Shown here one piece after another: positions 1 through 8,776 of a DNA stretch of 64,000 nucleotides (the stretch's first letter is position 1; each line of letters opens with the position of its first letter). The notes under the pieces are model-generated. The model ran no database searches, had not been told where the DNA came from, and saw only the letters and a list, made by a program, of their open reading frames with translations. Source of the stretch: Naegleria gruberi (lineage: Eukaryota); the NCBI GenBank assembly GCA_000004985.1, contig GG738895.1. One strand, written 5' to 3'. A program made the translations under genes and the position numbers.

Positions 1-431
1 ACCCAACCCAAACCCAAACCCAAACCCAAACCCAAACCCAAACCCAAACCCAAACCCAAACCCAAACCCAAACCCAAACCCAAACCCAAACCCAAACCCA
101 AACCCAAACCCAAACCCAAACCCAAACCCAAACCCAAACCCAAACCCAAACCCAAACCCAAACCCAAACCCAAACCCAAACCCAAACCCAAACCCAAACC
201 CAAACCCAAACCCAAACCCAAACCCAAACCCAAACCCAAACCCAAACCCAAACCCAAACCCAAACCCAAACCCAAACCCAAACCCAAACCCAAACCCAAA
301 CCCAAACCCAAACCCAAACCCAAACCCAAACCCAAACCCAAACCCAAACCCAAACCCAAACCCAAACCCAAACCCAAACCCAAACCCAAACCCAAACCCA
401 AACCCAAACCCAAACCCAAACCCAAACCCAC
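1..431. repeat. Telomeric repeat array (CCCAAA)n, ~70 units (G-strand TTTGGG); window starts at a chromosome end
   Basis: Perfect 6-nt periodicity CCCAAA from base 1 to ~431 with one CCCAA variant at the very start. The C-rich strand reads 5'->3' on +, as expected for a left chromosome end. It passes abruptly into unique AT-rich DNA at 432. Confidence 0.9.
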
Positions 432-1229
432 GACTAAGGTCAGACCCAACTTTTTTACTTTTATTCATCTTAATTCATTATCTCAATAAATACTCATTAT
501 AAATCAATATATTATATATCAATATACTCCAAATTGAATATATAATCATATAATAACATAATATAACATCATTATAATGACTTATATAAGTCAATTTCAT
601 AAAATAGATTAGACAATTAGAATATCAATGAAAACATTTCAAAATCATTTCAAATCAATTTATCACATTATAAATCATGTTAATAACAATATATATCAAT
701 TTCAAATACTTTGGTATCATTTCAGGATGTTTACTATTCAACTTGTCAACTGACCTATATTAACATTGAAAGTAGAAATCTATACCACTTCAATTCACTT
801 CCAATACATCTATACATGATAATGAAATACATTAATATCAATTTTACCTTCATCCATATAATACATGGTACATGGCTGATCTACTTGATACATACAGGGA
901 TGTGACAATGACATGCACTATACAGATCATTATGAAATTGATACAGTACCTTACTAATGGTGAATAAACACTACTGTATCAGTTTCATGATAATTTGAAA
1001 TCATTCAACATGTCAGGAGTGTAATTATGGGAATAATGAATATCAAGATAATGAAATCATATTAATTTAAAAATCTTTCAATTATAATATCATATATAGA
1101 TCAATTAATCATGGTATTTCAATAATTGGTATTGACTTTCAAATCAATTCATTCAAACCTTAATGACCTATCCTTAGATGACCAAGTCAATTTTAAACTA
1201 TCATGAATCATATAATTATTGATGCCATN

Positions 1230-1526
1230 NNNNNNNNNNNNNNNNNNNNNNNNNNNNNNNNNNNNNNNNNNNNNNNNNNNNNNNNNNNNNNNNNNNNNNN
1301 NNNNNNNNNNNNNNNNNNNNNNNNNNNNNNNNNNNNNNNNNNNNNNNNNNNNNNNNNNNNNNNNNNNNNNNNNNNNNNNNNNNNNNNNNNNNNNNNNNNN
1401 NNNNNNNNNNNNNNNNNNNNNNNNNNNNNNNNNNNNNNNNNNNNNNNNNNNNNNNNNNNNNNNNNNNNNNNNNNNNNNNNNNNNNNNNNNNNNNNNNNNN
1501 NNNNNNNNNNNNNNNNNNNNNNNNNN
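1230..1526. other. Assembly gap (297 N)
   Basis: Uninterrupted run of n characters. All ORF-track entries spanning it (1149..1616) are artefacts. Confidence 0.95.
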
Positions 1527-2540
1527 TGGTATCAATTATTTGTCGATAAAATAAATAGATATACGATATTATCAAATAAAATATATAGGTCCCTATTGAA
1601 AGTGTTTACCTGGTAAAAAGTGAGCGTAACTTCCCCTACTTTCATCCTAATTGATTATCTCCCTATATATATGATAGATTTCAATTATTTCAATTATATA
1701 TCATAATACATGATAATTAGACATGTATCAATGAGTGGAATTAAGTCATGTAAGATATTCATCCTTCAATTGCCAGTACTGTCAATTTCACACAAGTTGA
1801 CTTCCTACAGTCTGAATATGGGTCTAATAATGATTATTTCAATTATATATGATTATATTTGATATTTACTACTGTATATATGAGTTTAATAAATTAGTAT
1901 AGTGTTTCCATAGTATGGCTCAATATCTTGGTCAATTAAGGTAGAATGAGTACAGTATACTAAGGATATTATATATTATACTTCCAACACTTCTACAAGG
2001 TAGATATCATCATTATACATCATGTATATGAGATTGGTGATGATTCTAATAACATTCATATAATAATACAATAAATGTTGAAAAGTTAATATTTAGACAT
2101 GTTGTCATTTATTCAATATACCGATTCAACAAGATTAATTCATAATATCATCTATTCATACATATATCTACAATATATCAAAAATTTCATTCTGGCCCAA
2201 CTTTGAAATTTTAGACCTACTAGGGTAAAAACCTTAATATTTTAGGCAATGCCTTATAACTTTTTGGCCTCCAACTATGTTTTAATTTTTTCACCGGATT
2301 TAGTCAACTCATATATTGATCTATTGATTATGTGTAGATGGTATTTCAGATATTCCTAATTATTGAGATATGCGAAGAAAACCTAACTTTTTTTTCATCG
2401 AGTACCTATTATCTCTAGAACCACTTTGAGTTTTTATTATCATATAACAGTTTGTCGATGAAATTGTACCCTGATTAACATATATAAGATCCAAGTTTTG
2501 AATATTAGCCATTAATAAAATGGTAATGGGTTTTCGCCAT

Positions 2541-2567
2541 ACCCAAACCCAAACCCAAACCCAAACC
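2541..2567. repeat. Interstitial telomere-like tract (CCCAAA)x4.5
   Basis: acccaaacccaaacccaaacccaaacc lies 2.1 kb inside the terminal array in the same orientation, followed by a degenerate aacacc. Confidence 0.8.
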
Positions 2568-2715
2568 AACACCTTCTTTTGATGTTTCACTGGATAAACC
2601 TTATTACAGAGGAAATACTTCAATAAGAACAGATATTCAAAATTTTTTTGTTGGAGATCGTGTACGCTACAGATACCCAGACAATCAATGTATCAGTCCT
2701 GATACAGCTTTCAGT

Positions 2716-3099
2716 TTGTACCCTAATGCTGATGCTGTTCAGAGTGTTTGTGGATGTTCAAAGTTCTTTGCGATAATGCATACCGGATTCGGATTGGTAG
2801 ACAATTCTACTATTCCTGATGAGTATTATCCTTTGACAATTACTATCAAACCAAAGTTCCAAAAATATTCTACACAACAAGAGTATTTTTGCACAGCAAG
2901 TCCATTTTCTTGTTCTAGACAGCACTGTGAATGTACATCTGGAGGAGTTAATCTTGATGAAAGTAGTTTTTTTTTCCCTCCCATTAGCAATTCAATTAAT
3001 AGATATGGAAGTACTAGAAGTGTTTCATCAGCCATAACAATTTCACAAAATATTTATTTAATAGTTTTATTGATTTTCTTCATTTTGTATTTACAATAA
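2716..3099 (+). CDS. Hypothetical ORF (TTG start in track); Cys-containing, hydrophobic C-terminus; possibly a gene fragment
   Basis: 127-aa ORF with no recognisable domain. It ends in a hydrophobic tail (IYLIVLLIFFILYLQ). No ATG at the listed start. It lies in the subtelomeric zone next to a kinase remnant. Confidence 0.15.
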   Translation: MYPNADAVQSVCGCSKFFAIMHTGFGLVDNSTIPDEYYPLTITIKPKFQKYSTQQEYFCTASPFSCSRQHCECTSGGVNLDESSFFFPPISNSINRYGSTRSVSSAITISQNIYLIVLLIFFILYLQ

Positions 3100-3208
3100 A
3101 TCATACATTCTATTTGCATTAAAAATTTTTCATTTAGAAATAGTGAGATTGTGTTCAGATACTGTTTTAACTCTTAAAAAATGGCTAAATGTTAACTAAT
3201 GTGAAATT

Positions 3209-3660
3209 TCATTCAATATTTGAATCATTTGCGAGAAGGAAGGTCTTTCCATTGGATTTGGATGCAAGTTCACAATACTTGAGCACACTCTTCATACTTT
3301 TCTCCTTCGATTGGTTTTCATGCACTGGATATAGTAATAACCATTCATTCAATTCATTTTCGTTTTCAAATGGAATACTTGGTCGTTCCCCTTTTAAAAC
3401 ATTTGAGATGATATCAACAATTGATCTATCCGATTGATACTTGGCTTTCTCTGATTTACAATAAGGAGAAACTTCGAAAAATAATTCCCACATTATAATA
3501 GCAAAGCTATACACGTCAACTTTGGGAGCCCTTTGAGATTTATCAGTATTACTATTACTCGTATTATCTGATCGAATTGTTTCCTATTTAAATAACAGGT
3601 AAGCTGAGAGGTAAGCTCAATCCGAAATCAACGATTTTACATGAATCAATCTCCTTCTTC
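3209..3660 (-). pseudogene. Protein kinase catalytic-domain remnant (subdomains VII-XI), apparently disrupted
   Basis: Minus-strand translation gives ...KIVDFGLS... (DFG motif) and ...APKVDVYSFAIIMWELF...PY...VLKGERPSIP (APE, subdomain IX-XI, TKL-like). Reading frame is broken between DFG and APE without a convincing GT..AG intron. No glycine loop or HRD region is found upstream. Confidence 0.4.
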
Positions 3661-4076
3661 CTCAATAATGACAGTCTTTTCTGAATGTGAACAATACCTT
3701 TTGTATAATATTTGAATTCAATGGAATAGTTTCAGAATCTAGTGACAGGGCAGTTACATTGACGAAAAATGTTTCTCCTGGTTTCACAACTTTCAAAACT
3801 GCTCTAATGTCAGTAAACTTAGCAGCAGCTGCCAATAAATTAGGACTGCTTTATTTCTAGTGAATAAGCAATTTTGAATGTAATTAGGATAATTATTACT
3901 GCCCAAAAGATAAATGGCACCTCCAAACTCATTTGCATATTATTTTGAAATGCAGTATTAGATATTATTCAGATATTTGTAAATTGTACATCATATCCAA
4001 GTTTAGTGCGCATCCACTGGTTTTACATACAGTATTAATAAAATTTGATTTGTAAATAATAACTTCAAACCTTGTA

Positions 4077-4961
4077 TTATCTGACATGGATTGTATAACC
4101 AGTTTTTACGTCATTGCTGTAATGATTTTGGATTGTAACATTTACCATAGATAAATCATCTACAATATAGAAAGAAATAGGTGAACTTATTTTTCCTGAA
4201 ATGGCTTGAGATTGAGCATTCCCATCAAAATCAACATTCATACTCTCAACCTTTTGTGCACTTCGTACTAAGAGAGAACCACCTGATCTTTTGAAAGATG
4301 AATCCTCAGAAAATTGAAACACAAATACAATTGCAAGTTTTGTACATTCTTCAATATGTATATTTCGTATCTTGATTTCTTTAACACTGATGGTATCCAC
4401 CATTAAGTTAGATTTCATAAACTGCCCATTTTGAAATATGATAAGATTAGCTTCATAGATTGGTAAATTTACAGATGCATCTTCCATGAAATTGTTTTGA
4501 AAAACAATCCGATTATTTCCTCTCAGCTCTATATAGCATCCTTGTAATAACTTGCCAACGAGTTTACAATCTTTGAATAATGTTAGATATGTTGCTGTAG
4601 TTAAAATGTTAGAACTGATTAGTTCACTACTTTCAACAATAAAATTAACTTTTGTAGGCTTAGTGTTGAAATCTACATCATTCATATGCTGAAATAGTGA
4701 GGACGTCAATTAGCAATTAGCATAACCAAAAGAGGTACTTATAATTTTTGAAAATATTCTAAAATTCACAATTTCAATATTATTAAATATTATCCAAGCA
4801 ACATCTGTTCTGTCTTTCAAATACATGTATGTGTTGCCCTTCTGGAAAGTCAAACCTCTCTTTTCAGAACTTTGAAACATGAAATAGTATGAAATTAATG
4901 AATTTGATGGTAAATCAAAATCTCCGTATGTGAATGAAAGATTACCTTCAATATTAATCAC
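4077..4961 (-). CDS. Hypothetical protein (two abutting ORFs 4077-4709 and 4710-4961, frameshift or tiny intron)
   Basis: Adjacent same-strand ORFs of 210 and 83 aa with ordinary coding composition. No recognisable motif. Confidence 0.3.
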
Positions 4962-5892: not shown

Positions 5893-7665
5893 ATGCGTTC
5901 AAAATCTCTCTTGATCGCTATCTTCTTGCTTTTGTGTTTGATCTTCACAGCTCAATCTTCATTTGCTGCTGAAGAACAATCAAACCCTCTCAAACAAGAA
6001 CTTTCCCGCCTTTTAAAATTAAAAAAACAACTCAAAACCAAGTGGAACCCTAGCCGTTATTTGAATGAGCGTATTTTGCGTATTGCCAAGAGATTTAGAA
6101 TTGCCATTCCTCAACGTTGCAAGAGACGTGTTATTATTGATGATGAAGTAGTTGATACTATTAGAAAATTGGCCGAGTGTGATCGTGATACTAAACCTGA
6201 ATTGCCAACCAATCCTTCCACTCCATCAAATCCATCTACACCAACAACACCATCTAATCCAAGTACTCCAACAAATCCTTCCACTCCAACAACACCACAA
6301 GAACCTACAAATCCTTCTGTTCCTACTGTTCCTTCCACTCCAACAACACCATCAACACCATCCAATCCAAGTACTCCAACCACTCCATCAAATCCAACTA
6401 CTCCATCTACTCCAACTCTTCCAAAATGTCCAAAGAGACTCACTTGTAGATTGTTGTGTAAGAATGGATATTATTACGATTCAAATGGATGTGTTGATAC
6501 TTGTCGTTGTAAGCCATCTTCTTGTCCACAATTCAGATGTTTGAGAGCTTGTCCATATGGATATAAGGTTAATGCTCGTGGATGTACCACTTGTGATTGT
6601 AAGCCAAAACCTTCCACTCCAACTAAACCAACTAAACCAACCTTTGAATGTCCAAAGCGTAAATGTGCTCGTTTGTGTGCCCATGGCTATAAGACTGATA
6701 GAAGAGGATGTCAAACTTGTTCTTGTGTTAGAAAGCCAGTCAGACCAACACCAGTTAGACCAACTCCTGTTAGACCAACACCAGTCAGACCAACACCTCC
6801 AGTTAGACCACCAGTTATTGTCACACCAACACCTGTTAGACCAACTCCAGTTGTCACACCAACACCTGTCAGACCAACACCTCCTCCAGTGAGACCACCA
6901 GTTGTTGTCAGACCACCAGTTGTCAGACCAAGACGTAGAAGAAGACGTTTCTTCGGAAGAGGTAGAGGTGACCCACATTACAGTTTGTTGCATGCCAGCA
7001 ATGCTGCCCATAAGGATGTACTTTTTAATGGATTGGGTGATTATATTTTAGCTGAAACTGTTGATAAGGAATTTATTGCTCATGTCAGAATTGGCAAGTG
7101 GCATAAGAAGGCTACTGTTAATATTGGTGCTGCCATCAAGCTTGGAACTGATGTTATTGAATTCGATTCTAAGGATGGTCAATTCTACCTTAATAAGGAA
7201 GAAGCTGAATTCAAGATTGGAAAGAAATATGAACTTGAAGGAGGTTCTCTTATTAGAAAGAGTGAAAATAGATTTATTATCAAGTCCGTTGATGGAGTTG
7301 AATTCTTTGGTGAAAGATTCACTCTCCACGATGGAAAGAGTTACATGGATGTCCAAGTTGATTCTCCAAAGGATGTTGAATTCAGACGTGGTTTGATTAT
7401 CAATGGTAAGGGCAGACAAGGAAAGGGTCTTTTCAGAGTTTTAAAGGCTGCTAAGGTTAATAAGAACGCTGTTGCTGTTGTTGAAATTCCAAAGTGGGCC
7501 AAGAAGGCTTGTGCTAAGCAAGGATTGACTGGAAAGAAACTCAAGGATTGTGCCTATGATATTACCGTTACAGGTAAGGAATTCGCCAAGGAAATTGCCA
7601 AGGATGAAGCCAAGTTTGCCAAGAAGAGTAGAAAGGTTTTAAAGGCTGTTTCTAAGAAGAAATAA
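5893..7665 (+). CDS. Secreted modular protein with a signal peptide, mucin-like Pro/Thr/Ser repeats, four antistasin-like 6-Cys modules, (PVRPT)n repeats, an Arg6 tract, a GDPH-motif (VWD-like) domain and a Lys-rich tail
   Basis: ATG at 5893. N-terminus MRSKSLLIAIFLLLCLIFTAQSSFA is a classic signal peptide. PSTPTTPSNPSTP repeats follow. Four copies of C-x5-C-x3-C-x2-G-x3-D-x2-GC-x3-C-x-C (e.g. CPKRLTCRLLCKNGYYYDSNGCVDTCRC) fit the antistasin-like spacing. PVRPTPVRPTP repeats, RRRRRR and then RGDPHYSLL... follow, GDPH being the VWD/RGM autocleavage motif. Single exon, TAA stop. Confidence 0.7.
   Translation: MRSKSLLIAIFLLLCLIFTAQSSFAAEEQSNPLKQELSRLLKLKKQLKTKWNPSRYLNERILRIAKRFRIAIPQRCKRRVIIDDEVVDTIRKLAECDRDTKPELPTNPSTPSNPSTPTTPSNPSTPTNPSTPTTPQEPTNPSVPTVPSTPTTPSTPSNPSTPTTPSNPTTPSTPTLPKCPKRLTCRLLCKNGYYYDSNGCVDTCRCKPSSCPQFRCLRACPYGYKVNARGCTTCDCKPKPSTPTKPTKPTFECPKRKCARLCAHGYKTDRRGCQTCSCVRKPVRPTPVRPTPVRPTPVRPTPPVRPPVIVTPTPVRPTPVVTPTPVRPTPPPVRPPVVVRPPVVRPRRRRRRFFGRGRGDPHYSLLHASNAAHKDVLFNGLGDYILAETVDKEFIAHVRIGKWHKKATVNIGAAIKLGTDVIEFDSKDGQFYLNKEEAEFKIGKKYELEGGSLIRKSENRFIIKSVDGVEFFGERFTLHDGKSYMDVQVDSPKDVEFRRGLIINGKGRQGKGLFRVLKAAKVNKNAVAVVEIPKWAKKACAKQGLTGKKLKDCAYDITVTGKEFAKEIAKDEAKFAKKSRKVLKAVSKKK
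6208..6420 (+). repeat. Coding tandem repeats (Pro/Thr/Ser mucin-like, ~18-21 nt units)
   Basis: Repeated ccatc(t/a)a(a/c)tcc(a/t)...actcca units encoding PSNPSTPTTP. They also generate the spurious antisense and alternate-frame ORFs 6111..6443, 6152..6544 and 6481..7011. Confidence 0.6.
6727..6948 (+). repeat. Coding tandem repeats (PVRPT 15-nt units) ending in an Arg6 tract
   Basis: ccagt(c/t)agaccaaca(cct) is repeated about 10 times and is followed by agacgtagaagaagacgt. Confidence 0.6.
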
Positions 7666-7816: not shown

Positions 7817-8776
7817 ATGAATTACAAACTTAAACTGATACTAATTGTTATGGTTGTCTCGCTGGTGACTCTATTCGCTGAGAGAAATCTTCTGTTTTCA
7901 ATCCTTAACCATTATCCACATAAGGAAACAGAAGCAATTACAAACGAAATCCATGTCGTAACGATTTATGAAAATTCAGCAAAGGTACAATCTCCTCTTC
8001 TTGCATTTCTTCCGTGTCCTTCTCAGTCTCATTCTCAATCCCTAACCATTCATCTATTCATTAATTCCAATCACACAATTGAGTGTTTACAAAACAGATT
8101 AAGCTCTTGCCAAAGGTTAACTCTCAAATTTTACAGTTCATCAGAATTGAGCATCAATACTCAATCCACTCATTACAGTGCCTCATCTGCCAAAAAGAAA
8201 CTCAAATTATTACAATTTTTTCAACACAAAATTCAACGATTCTTATATTTGGACGCTGACACATTTTTAGTGCACGGATTTGAAGGATTAATTCAGGTGT
8301 GGAAGAATTTCTTATTATTCGAAAAGGATGAATTTATTGGAATGAGTAAAGAATTGAGTAATTGGTACAAGTATGATTCGTATAATTCTGGAGTCATCCT
8401 AATAGATATTCGAAAATCATTACAATATCCTTGGAAACAAATATTGGAAGAAACTATCCAAGATGTTGGAGTAACCCAACTTGCAGATCAGGATATTTTC
8501 AATGTAATTGATAGAAAAACAAGAGGAAAGTGGTTCCATCGAATAGATTGTGGACTAAACTTGCAACATGCTGGATGGAAAGAGTGTTCTACAAGTTGTG
8601 TAAGAATCATTCATTTCAATGCCATGCCAAATATTCAAAATACCACCAATCTTGCTTCCATGCTGAACTATGCCAGAAAAACCTATCAGTCAATTGGTTG
8701 TGAAACGACTATTTTCCCACATGATAATTTGTTTAATTGGATTGGTAATTCAAACATTAGCCTTATCTGTAAATAA
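7817..8776 (+). CDS. Glycosyltransferase family 8-like protein, type II membrane topology
   Basis: N-terminal signal anchor (LKLILIVMVVSLVTLF). Carries the GT8 hallmarks YLDADTFLV (DxD), YNSGVILIDI and DQDIFNVI. Confidence 0.55.
   Translation: MNYKLKLILIVMVVSLVTLFAERNLLFSILNHYPHKETEAITNEIHVVTIYENSAKVQSPLLAFLPCPSQSHSQSLTIHLFINSNHTIECLQNRLSSCQRLTLKFYSSSELSINTQSTHYSASSAKKKLKLLQFFQHKIQRFLYLDADTFLVHGFEGLIQVWKNFLLFEKDEFIGMSKELSNWYKYDSYNSGVILIDIRKSLQYPWKQILEETIQDVGVTQLADQDIFNVIDRKTRGKWFHRIDCGLNLQHAGWKECSTSCVRIIHFNAMPNIQNTTNLASMLNYARKTYQSIGCETTIFPHDNLFNWIGNSNISLICK

What the first reader, a model, noticed from the sequence alone, without database searches (positions are those of the whole stretch)
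2541..2567. Interstitial telomere-like tract 2.1 kb inside the true telomere
A 4.5-unit CCCAAA tract in the same orientation as the terminal array is embedded in unique subtelomeric DNA. It could be a relic of an earlier healed chromosome end. In that case the distal 2 kb, including the N gap, was added later by subtelomeric duplication or recombination.
Basis: seen in the sequence. Interest (0 to 1): 0.5.

Follow-up and report, generated by a model that had tools for sequence, protein, structure and literature searches.

The report
Telomere scar at a truncated gene
A short internal stretch of telomere repeats near the end of a Naegleria gruberi chromosome sits exactly where a gene has been cut off, so it is the scar of an old chromosome break capped by telomerase; this kind of event is well known in other organisms.

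Summary
ACCCAAACCCAAACCCAAACCCAAACC lies at 2541-2567, in the same orientation as the terminal (CCCAAA)~72 array at 1-430. It is the only non-terminal telomere-like tract in the 64 kb. The window is the end of a Naegleria gruberi NEG-M scaffold, and TTTGGG is that species' candidate telomere repeat.

The decisive result is comparative. The sequence just proximal to the tract (2574-3099) is the 3' two-thirds of a small gene for a secreted, probably membrane-anchored protein. A ~98%-identical Naegleria strain in an ENA metagenome carries this gene intact (262 aa), next to the same downstream neighbour. Homology with that copy, and with a second paralog, starts at window 2574-2576, right after the tract and one degenerate unit (AACACC). 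The 88 N-terminal codons are nowhere in the window.

The polarity is right for telomerase extending the 3' end of the centromere-side fragment. So a break inside the gene was healed by de novo telomere addition. The 2.1-kb AT-rich, ORF-free distal block with the present telomere was joined on afterwards.

Three things could not be tested: whether the block is duplicated at other ends, how it was joined, and whether the Sanger-era assembly (N gap 1230-1526) is right. This is a known kind of structure (subtelomeric ITS) and of modest interest.

The parts
1..430 (+). Terminal telomere array, C-rich strand (CCCAAA)~72, at the very start of the scaffold. The junction to the subtelomere reads ...CCCAAACCCA|CGACTAAGG.
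   Evidence: period 6, 71.8 copies, 99% matches. TTTGGG is reported as the candidate telomere repeat of N. gruberi (PMC3622300).
431..1229 (.). Distal block, part A. AT-rich (24% GC), non-coding, telomere-adjacent sequence. It is joined to the rest only across the N gap.
   Evidence: No ORF longer than 64 aa. GC content. No copy elsewhere in the window.
1230..1526 (.). Scaffolding gap of 297 N. Contiguity between the telomere-bearing contig and the contig holding the internal tract rests on the assembler's linking, not on sequence.
1527..2540 (.). Distal block, part B. 27% GC and non-coding. It is contiguous in sequence with the internal telomere tract and unrelated to the missing 5' half of the truncated gene.
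   Evidence: No similarity to L001-L004 or to the rest of the window. No Rfam family or tRNA.
2541..2567 (+). Interstitial telomere tract, A(CCCAAA)4CC, in the same orientation as the terminal array.
2568..2573 (+). Degenerate innermost unit AACACC, lying between the perfect repeats and the point where gene homology begins. On the G strand it reads ...CATCAAAAGAA|GGTGTT|GGTTTG...
   Evidence: alignment A2.
2574..3099 (+). 5'-truncated remnant of a small gene, equivalent to residues 89-262 of the intact 262-aa protein P0001, with the stop TAA at 3097-3099. The signal peptide and 88 N-terminal codons are missing. There is an in-frame stop at 2524-2526 and no start codon, so it is presumably a pseudogene.
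   Evidence: tblastn gives P0001 residues 89-262 = window 2575-3096 at 97.7%. DNA alignments are A1 and A2 and the protein alignment is A3.
3209..4709 (-). Next gene inward. By eye it shows protein-kinase-like motifs (DFG, DVYSFAIIMWE). It serves as the synteny anchor, because the same gene follows the intact copy in the related strain.
   Evidence: L001 1261-1383 and the 3' part of the 415-1267 match align to window 3100-3602. Pfam was not significant on the 101-aa ORF, so 'kinase-like' is by eye only.

Best explanation
In the lineage leading to Naegleria gruberi NEG-M, this chromosome arm broke inside a small subtelomeric gene. The gene encodes a secreted protein with a hydrophobic C-terminal tail (the P0001/P0002/P0003 family).

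Telomerase extended the 3' end of the centromere-side fragment, which on the bottom strand reads 5'-...CATCAAAAGAA-3'. It added first an irregular unit (GGTGTT) and then regular GGTTTG/TTTGGG repeats, which capped the end. All sequence distal to the break was lost from this chromosome, including the first 88 codons of the gene and its promoter.

Later a 2.1-kb AT-rich non-coding block carrying its own telomere became attached to the base of that telomere. This most likely happened by recombination or break-induced replication from a short telomere, or by end joining. It left 4.5 perfect repeats stranded as an interstitial telomeric sequence.

Shown here: the tract, its polarity, the truncation of the gene exactly at the tract, the intact state in a close relative, and the absence of the 5' half from the window. 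Inferred: telomerase as the agent, the order of events, and the way the distal block was joined.
For: 1. Organism and repeat.
- Six window ORFs are identical to N. gruberi NEG-M proteins on a 333,733-bp scaffold.
- TTTGGG is the published candidate telomere repeat of that species (PMC3622300).
- The window starts with 430 nt of it.

2. The internal tract is the exact telomere unit, in the same orientation, and is unique in 64 kb.

3. The ORF running out of the tract has three relatives. They are P0001 (98% identity, 262 aa) and the N. gruberi proteins P0002 and P0003 (63% and 61%). P0001 and P0002 carry an N-terminal signal-peptide-like region and P0003 is itself N-terminally partial, but all three run through the conserved GCKIY motif that the window copy lacks.

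4. tblastn places P0001 residues 89-262 at window 2575-3096. It finds no credible match to residues 1-88 anywhere in the window (best E = 0.48).

5. At DNA level, homology with L001 starts at 2574 and with the paralog L004 at 2576, directly after the tract and AACACC. Upstream of that point the sequences are unrelated. The L001 gene is one uninterrupted ORF, so the breakpoint is not an exon boundary.

6. L001 comes from the same metagenome sample as L002 and L003. Those are collinear with window 28.7-37.3 kb (98.6%) and 9.7-12.0 kb (95-96% counting gaps). L001 continues into the same downstream gene. So L001 is most simply the orthologous locus of a ~98%-identical strain in which the gene is intact.

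7. The tract is not a native coding repeat.
- No relative has it.
- CCC is only 7.5% of Pro codons.
- Pro-Lys is encoded CCA-AAR in 32 of 36 cases in window genes.

8. The remnant differs from L001 by only 7 substitutions in 522 nt (4 amino-acid changes) and has no frameshift. This is consistent with a recent event.
Against: - The N. gruberi genome could not be searched. It is therefore unknown whether the distal block occurs at other ends, whether other ends carry similar tracts, or whether an intact allele persists on a homologous chromosome.
- The scaffold has an N gap at 1230-1526 and comes from a 2010 Sanger assembly (date and method from my own knowledge). Continuity across 1527-2600 rests on that assembly alone.
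- L001 could be a close paralog rather than the ortholog, since the family has at least 2 copies per strain.
- The break-point 3' end (...GAA) shows no obvious telomeric seed.
- The first added unit is irregular.
- Telomerase activity has never been shown biochemically in Naegleria, as far as the searched literature goes.
Confidence: 0.65

Rival explanations
1. Assembly chimera or mis-scaffold. The true chromosome end is at the tract: the truncated gene carries a long, currently functional telomere. Block 1527-2540, and the telomere contig linked to it across the N gap, belong to another chromosome end and were joined by a chimeric clone or a repeat-induced misjoin.
For: There is an N gap at 1230-1526 in the distal block. 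The distal block has no relation to anything proximal. No independent assembly or read set with this junction could be found.
Against: A chimeric join would have to fall exactly after 4.5 repeats of a terminal clone. Part B of the block (1 kb) is contiguous in sequence with the tract and the gene remnant. Short subtelomeric ITS of this kind are common in other eukaryotes (my own knowledge, plus PMC7367193).
Confidence: 0.12
2. One-step repair. The tract was never a functional telomere. At a double-strand break in the gene, telomerase added a few repeats as filler. The end was then immediately joined to another broken, telomere-bearing fragment, giving a terminal translocation with a telomeric filler.
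For: The tract is very short, 27 nt plus 6 degenerate. Telomerase-mediated insertion of short telomeric tracts at repaired breaks is documented in primates and rodents (Nergadze et al. 2004 and 2007, my own knowledge).
Against: In the documented cases the two flanks are contiguous in the ancestral sequence. Here the distal flank is unrelated to the gene's 5' half. The data cannot separate this reading from healing followed by telomere erosion or recombination.
Confidence: 0.15
3. The distal block is a telomere-targeting or telomere-associated mobile element (as with MoTeR in Magnaporthe, or Y'-like elements in yeast). It inserted into, or was copied onto, the healed telomere and so internalised a few repeats.
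For: Insertion of MoTeR elements into telomeres inevitably creates interstitial telomere tracts of a few repeats (PMC7367193). The block is bounded by telomere repeats on both sides.
Against: There is no ORF longer than 64 aa and no reverse-transcriptase-like sequence in the 1.8 kb that is sequenced. No structured RNA was found. There are no terminal repeats beyond one 61-nt imperfect direct repeat. Copy number in the genome is unknown.
Confidence: 0.06
4. The tract is a native coding Pro-Lys repeat, or simple-sequence noise, that resembles the telomere unit by chance. It would belong to a functional gene whose first exon lies upstream.
For: The tract is in frame with the downstream ORF ([11 protein letters not shown]). 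C/A-rich Pro-Thr repeats occur in a neighbouring gene.
Against: - None of four relatives has the repeat, and all have conserved sequence in its place.
- There is an in-frame stop five codons upstream (2524-2526), with no ATG and no AG acceptor in between.
- The N-terminal 88 aa are absent from the window.
- CCC is a rare Pro codon (7.5%), and four CCC-AAA in a row has a probability of about 2e-6 under window codon usage.
- CCCAAA has no stop codon in any forward frame, so reading in frame means little.
Confidence: 0.02

Closest known systems
Subtelomeric interstitial telomeric sequences at boundaries of subtelomeric blocks in humans and other vertebrates, read as relics of ancestral chromosome ends (Flint 1997; Mefford & Trask 2002; my own knowledge)
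   Same: A short head-to-tail tract of the species' own telomere unit. It has the same orientation as the terminal array, lies a few kb inside the end, and marks a discontinuity between two unrelated sequence blocks.
   Different: Here the proximal block is a gene cut at the tract, with the intact state preserved in a sister strain, so the breakage-healing origin is shown at base-pair level. Whether the distal block is a duplicon shared among ends, the defining property of the human blocks, is untested.
De novo telomere addition (chromosome healing) at broken ends, e.g. terminal truncations in Magnaporthe oryzae (PMC7367193), yeast, Plasmodium and human terminal deletions
   Same: Telomere repeats start directly at a non-telomeric breakpoint inside unique sequence. 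The polarity is correct and everything distal is lost.
   Different: Healed ends normally remain terminal, whereas here the healed end is now 2.1 kb internal. No 1-4-nt telomere seed is evident at the breakpoint, whereas 19 of 24 Magnaporthe events used one. The first unit is irregular.
Yeast X-(TG1-3)-Y' subtelomere organisation
   Same: An internal telomere tract separates the chromosome-specific subtelomere from a distal telomere-associated block that carries the real telomere. It is thought to arise and spread by recombination or break-induced replication between ends.
   Different: The Naegleria block has no ORF, whereas Y' encodes a helicase. Its copy number is unknown, and the tract is shorter.
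Short ITS inserted by telomerase during double-strand-break repair (Nergadze et al. 2004 and 2007; my own knowledge)
   Same: A few exact telomere repeats sit at an internal site, at a former break.
   Different: Those insertions have flanks that are contiguous in the ancestral sequence. Here the flanks are unrelated and one of them is truncated.

Membership tests
Subtelomeric ITS as relic of a healed chromosome end | The tract consists of the organism's own telomere unit | tested here: met
   It has 4.5 exact CCCAAA units, identical to the 430-nt terminal array. TTTGGG is reported for N. gruberi.
Subtelomeric ITS as relic of a healed chromosome end | Polarity: the G-rich strand runs 5'->3' towards the chromosome end, so telomerase could have extended the centromere-side fragment | tested here: met
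   The orientation matches the terminal array at the left end. The bottom strand reads ...CATCAAAAGAA-GGTGTT-(GGTTTG)4-GGT towards the end.
Subtelomeric ITS as relic of a healed chromosome end | The proximal flank is a sequence truncated exactly at the tract, and its ancestral continuation is missing | tested here: met
   Gene homology to L001 and L004 begins at 2574-2576. Residues 1-88 are absent from the window, and the gene is intact in a ~98%-identical strain.
Subtelomeric ITS as relic of a healed chromosome end | The distal block was acquired from, or is shared with, other chromosome ends | not testable with these tools
   The N. gruberi genome is not retrievable. There were no hits in JGI metagenomes or in the protein collection.
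Subtelomeric ITS as relic of a healed chromosome end | The structure is physically real, i.e. single molecules span the tract and both flanks | not testable with these tools
   Only one assembly is available, and there is an N gap at 1230-1526 in the distal block.
Telomerase filler insertion at a repaired internal break (short ITS, Nergadze type) | The two flanks are contiguous in the ancestral or outgroup sequence | tested here: not met
   The distal flank 2100-2540 has no similarity to the 5' half or the upstream region of the intact gene.
Telomere-targeting retroelement (MoTeR, TRAS/SART and similar) | It encodes a reverse transcriptase, or is a recognisable derivative present in multiple copies | tested here: not met
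   There is no ORF longer than 64 aa in 431-1229 or 1527-2540. Copy number could not be tested, and 297 nt are hidden in the gap.
Coding tandem repeat (Pro-Lys linker) of the gene family | The repeat, or a linker at that position, is present in homologues, and the reading frame is open from a start codon | tested here: not met
   It is absent from P0001, P0002, P0003 and P0012. There is an in-frame stop at 2524-2526. The codon usage is atypical.

The most novel reading that the evidence does not exclude
The 2.1-kb block bounded by telomere repeats on both sides is one copy of a subtelomeric module that moves between Naegleria chromosome ends. It could be a Y'-like block or a non-autonomous telomere-targeting element. 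Naegleria would then routinely rebuild broken or eroded ends by copying this module through short internal telomere tracts. This could contribute to the karyotype differences between strains noted in PMC9928731.
Probability: 0.15. Interest if true: 0.5.

Novelty: new member of a known kind. Interest (0 to 1): 0.3.

Why it matters
- **Evidence for the telomere repeat.** TTTGGG has been only a genome-mined 'candidate' telomere repeat for Naegleria gruberi. Repeats added onto a non-telomeric breakpoint inside a gene are natural-experiment evidence that the cell's telomerase really makes TTTGGG and can heal broken ends.
- **Subtelomere dynamics.** The case also shows, at base-pair resolution and with the 'before' state preserved in a sister strain, that Naegleria subtelomeres lose and gain sequence on a short evolutionary time scale (~2% divergence). 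This fits reports that chromosome number and size differ between strains.
- **Significance overall.** Beyond that, it is an ordinary example of a well-known class of subtelomeric scar, and no new mechanism is implied.

Tried and rejected
- **Pfam on the ORF and on P0001:** no family.
- **Fetching the N. gruberi loci of P0002, P0003 and the window's own scaffold:** not on record. Genome-wide tests of block duplication or ITS frequency were therefore impossible.
- **JGI metagenome scan for the distal junction** GGTTTTCGCCATACCCAAACCC: 0 hits.
- **JGI metagenome scan for relatives of P0001:** none confirmed.
- **The 87-aa minus-strand ORF spanning the junction (2360-2623):** the exact look-up and the homology search both found nothing.
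- **Search with the N-terminal 88 aa of P0001:** it found only one further paralog fragment, P0012/L004, from the same metagenome, and no N. gruberi NEG-M fragment. Oddly, it did not list P0001 itself.
- **Rfam and tRNA scans of 1-6000/8000:** nothing.
- **Self-comparison of the distal block with the rest of the window and with L001-L004:** only chance-level AT-rich matches.
- **AlphaFold model of P0001 from a 5-sequence alignment:** mean pLDDT 42, unusable, so no fold search was run.
- **Literature:**
  - No paper on PRJEB11402 was found.
  - The supplement of PMC3622300 is not held.
  - No paper describing Naegleria subtelomeres or ITS was found.
- **Coding-repeat reading:** rejected for the reasons given under the rival explanations.

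Full report
**What is in the sequence**

The window opens with 430 nt of (CCCAAA)n (71.8 copies, 99% matches). At 2541-2567 there is a second tract, ACCCAAACCCAAACCCAAACCCAAACC, on the same strand and in the same orientation. TRF reports it at 2537-2567 with 5.2 copies.

- A 12-mer search with one mismatch finds 69 hits in the terminal array and 3 in this tract, and nothing else on either strand, against 0.31 expected from shuffles.
- An 18-mer search with three mismatches gives the same picture, against 0.03 expected.
- The distance from the end of the terminal array is 2,111 nt, of which 297 are an N gap (1230-1526).

One addition: the tract is followed on the proximal side by one degenerate unit, AACACC (2568-2573).

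**Organism**

- Six long window ORFs are identical, residue for residue, to annotated proteins of Naegleria gruberi strain NEG-M (EFC40043.1, EFC40044.1, EFC39966.1, EFC39969.1, EFC39970.1, EFC39972.1). All lie on one 333,733-bp scaffold.
- TTTGGG was proposed as the candidate telomere repeat of N. gruberi from genome mining (Fulneckova et al. 2013, PMC3622300).
- The window is thus the telomeric end of a NEG-M scaffold, and the terminal array has the orientation expected at a left end.

**The decisive evidence: a gene is cut off at the tract**

Reading rightwards from the tract there is an open frame to a TAA at 3097-3099, and the tract itself reads as PKPKPKPK in that frame. A search of this ORF found three relatives:

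- P0001 (262 aa, 98% identical, from an ENA metagenome contig);
- two N. gruberi predicted proteins, P0002 and P0003 (63% and 61%).

P0001 and P0002 begin with a signal-peptide-like hydrophobic N-terminus and P0003 is itself N-terminally partial, but all three carry the conserved region ending in ...GCKIY directly before the sequence SFDVSLDKPYYRGN, with which the window copy starts. All end in a hydrophobic tail.

- tblastn aligns P0001 residues 89-262 to window 2575-3096 (97.7%). It finds no credible match to residues 1-88 anywhere in the 64 kb (best E = 0.48).
- At the DNA level, the contig carrying P0001 (L001; the gene is one uninterrupted ORF at 152-940) aligns with the window from position 2574 onwards. 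The sequences are unrelated to the left of that point.
- A second, frameshifted paralog from the same sample (L004) gives the same boundary, at 2576.

The junction on the top strand is:

- window: ...CGCCAT ACCCAAACCCAAACCCAAACCCAAACC AACACC TTCTTTTGATG...
- L001: ...GGATGTAAAATTTA TTCTTTTGATG...

**Is the intact copy the ancestral state of this locus?**

- L001 comes from ENA sample ERZ929261. The same sample yielded L002 (8.7 kb) and L003 (2.4 kb), found through proteins that cluster with window proteins.
- L002 is collinear with window 28.7-37.3 kb at 98.6%. L003 is collinear with 9.7-12.0 kb at 95-96% counting gaps.
- L001 matches 2574-3422 with 16 mismatches and three indels, then 3480-3602 at 97.6%.
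- L001 also continues into the same downstream, minus-strand gene as the window.

The simplest reading is that the metagenome holds a Naegleria strain about 2% diverged from NEG-M, and that L001 is the orthologous locus with the gene intact. P0001, P0002 and P0012 carry the N-terminal region and the partial P0003 carries the stretch just before the breakpoint, so the intact form is ancestral and the NEG-M copy is derived. The remnant differs from L001 by 7 substitutions in 522 nt (4 amino-acid changes) with no frameshift, so the event is evolutionarily recent.

**Why the tract is telomeric and not a coding repeat**

- No relative has a Pro-Lys repeat there.
- Five codons upstream of the tract there is an in-frame stop (2524-2526). 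No ATG and no AG acceptor lie in between.
- In about 10,000 codons of window genes, CCC makes up 7.5% of proline codons. Pro-Lys is written CCA-AAA or CCA-AAG in 32 of 36 cases. Four consecutive CCC-AAA have a probability near 2e-6 under that usage.
- CCCAAA has no stop codon in any forward frame, so the in-frame reading carries no weight.

**Mechanism**

The polarity is what telomerase would produce. On the bottom strand the centromere-side fragment ends 5'-...CATCAAAAGAA-3' and is followed by GGTGTT, four GGTTTG units and GGT, running towards the chromosome end. In the intact gene, TAAATTTTACATCC follows at that point.

I therefore conclude that the arm broke inside this gene and was healed by de novo telomere addition. 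The first added unit is irregular, as is common for the innermost repeats, and no clear telomeric seed is visible at the break.

Today the tract is followed distally by 1,014 nt of contiguous AT-rich sequence (27% GC), the gap, 799 nt more (24% GC) and the real telomere. This block has these properties:

- no ORF above 64 aa;
- no Rfam or tRNA hit;
- no similarity to the rest of the window or to L001-L004.

It must have been attached after healing. I rank the possible routes as follows:

1. recombination or break-induced replication from a shortened telomere into another end that already had such a tract;
2. end joining of an eroded telomere to a telomere-bearing fragment;
3. immediate joining after telomerase had added only a few repeats (one-step repair);
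4. insertion of a telomere-targeting element, as MoTeRs do in Magnaporthe, where such insertions create interstitial telomeres of a few repeats (PMC7367193).

The last route is disfavoured by the lack of any coding capacity. The others cannot be separated with the data at hand.

**Caveats**

The N. gruberi genome itself could not be reached. Searches for the distal junction or for relatives in JGI metagenomes and in the protein collection found nothing.

The scaffold carries an N gap inside the distal block and stems from a Sanger-era assembly (my own knowledge). A chimeric join at the base of a real terminal telomere is therefore possible; I put this at about 12%. In that case the healing conclusion stands, but the tract would be the base of a present telomere rather than a relic. 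L001 might also be a very close paralog rather than the ortholog. That would not change the inference that the window copy lacks its 5' part from the tract outwards.

**Comparison with what is known**

Short, correctly oriented telomere tracts at boundaries between subtelomeric blocks are classic in humans and in yeast (X-TG1-3-Y'). Healed terminal truncations are known from many organisms, for example Magnaporthe (PMC7367193).

This case meets the tested defining features of a healed-end relic: own repeat unit, polarity, and truncated proximal flank. It fails the defining feature of telomerase-filler insertions, which is contiguous flanks. It also fails the tests for a retroelement and for a coding repeat. 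I found no description of subtelomere structure or interstitial telomere tracts in Naegleria in the searchable literature. The pangenome paper does not mention telomeres, but notes that chromosome number and size vary between strains (PMC9928731).

**Verdict**

- It is a new instance of a known kind of structure.
- Its main value is as natural evidence that Naegleria telomerase makes TTTGGG and heals breaks, and as a dated example of subtelomere turnover.
- Interest is modest (0.3).

Noticed in passing
L001, L002, L003, L004 (ENA sample ERZ929261, run ERR1078381, project PRJEB11402): A sample labelled 'metagenome' contains sizeable contigs of a Naegleria strain about 98% identical to N. gruberi NEG-M. 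They are collinear with window 2.6-3.6, 9.7-12.0 and 28.7-37.3 kb. No paper citing the project was found.
   Followed up: partly
L004 207-723: This is a second paralog of the truncated gene in the related strain (86.5% to L001, 94% to the window remnant). It carries an extra base that splits it into two overlapping ORFs, so it is probably a pseudogene. The family looks small, multi-copy and decaying.
   Followed up: partly
window 3209-4709 (-), with indels against L001 near 3139-3151, 3266 and 3423-3479: The first gene inward shows protein-kinase-like motifs by eye (KIVDFGLS, DVYSFAIIMWE) but seems to lack the HRD catalytic motif, and Pfam does not call it on the 101-aa ORF. Against the related strain, the window has a 57-nt in-frame segment that L001 lacks. 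L001 has a 17-nt insertion that would alter the C-terminus. There is also a 13-nt indel in the intergenic region.
   Followed up: partly
window 5893-7665 (+): This is a 590-aa secreted-looking protein with three antistasin-type domains (Pfam PF02822, E = 7e-19). It has long Pro/Thr/Ser and Arg-Pro-Thr-Pro-Val repeats encoded by C/A-rich 9- and 15-nt units (CCAACACCT type). That shows C/A-rich simple repeats do occur in coding DNA here, though none matches the telomere unit.
   Followed up: partly
window 1684-1744 and 1833-1893: This is a 61-nt imperfect direct repeat (77% identity, 149 nt apart) inside the distal block. It is the only internal repeat found there.
   Followed up: no
window 447-455 and 2196-2204: The motif CCCAACTTT occurs both 17 nt inside the terminal telomere junction and 340 nt distal to the internal tract. 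It may be chance.
   Followed up: no
window 1-12: The outermost unit of the terminal array reads ACCCAA-CCCAAA, a 5-nt CCCAA variant at the very end of the scaffold. It is probably a read-end or trimming effect.
   Followed up: no
window 7817-8776 (+): This ORF has a glycosyltransferase family 8 domain (PF01501, E = 5e-6) and lies close to the chromosome end. Its exact sequence is not in the protein collection, although neighbouring ORFs are, so the annotated model may differ.
   Followed up: no
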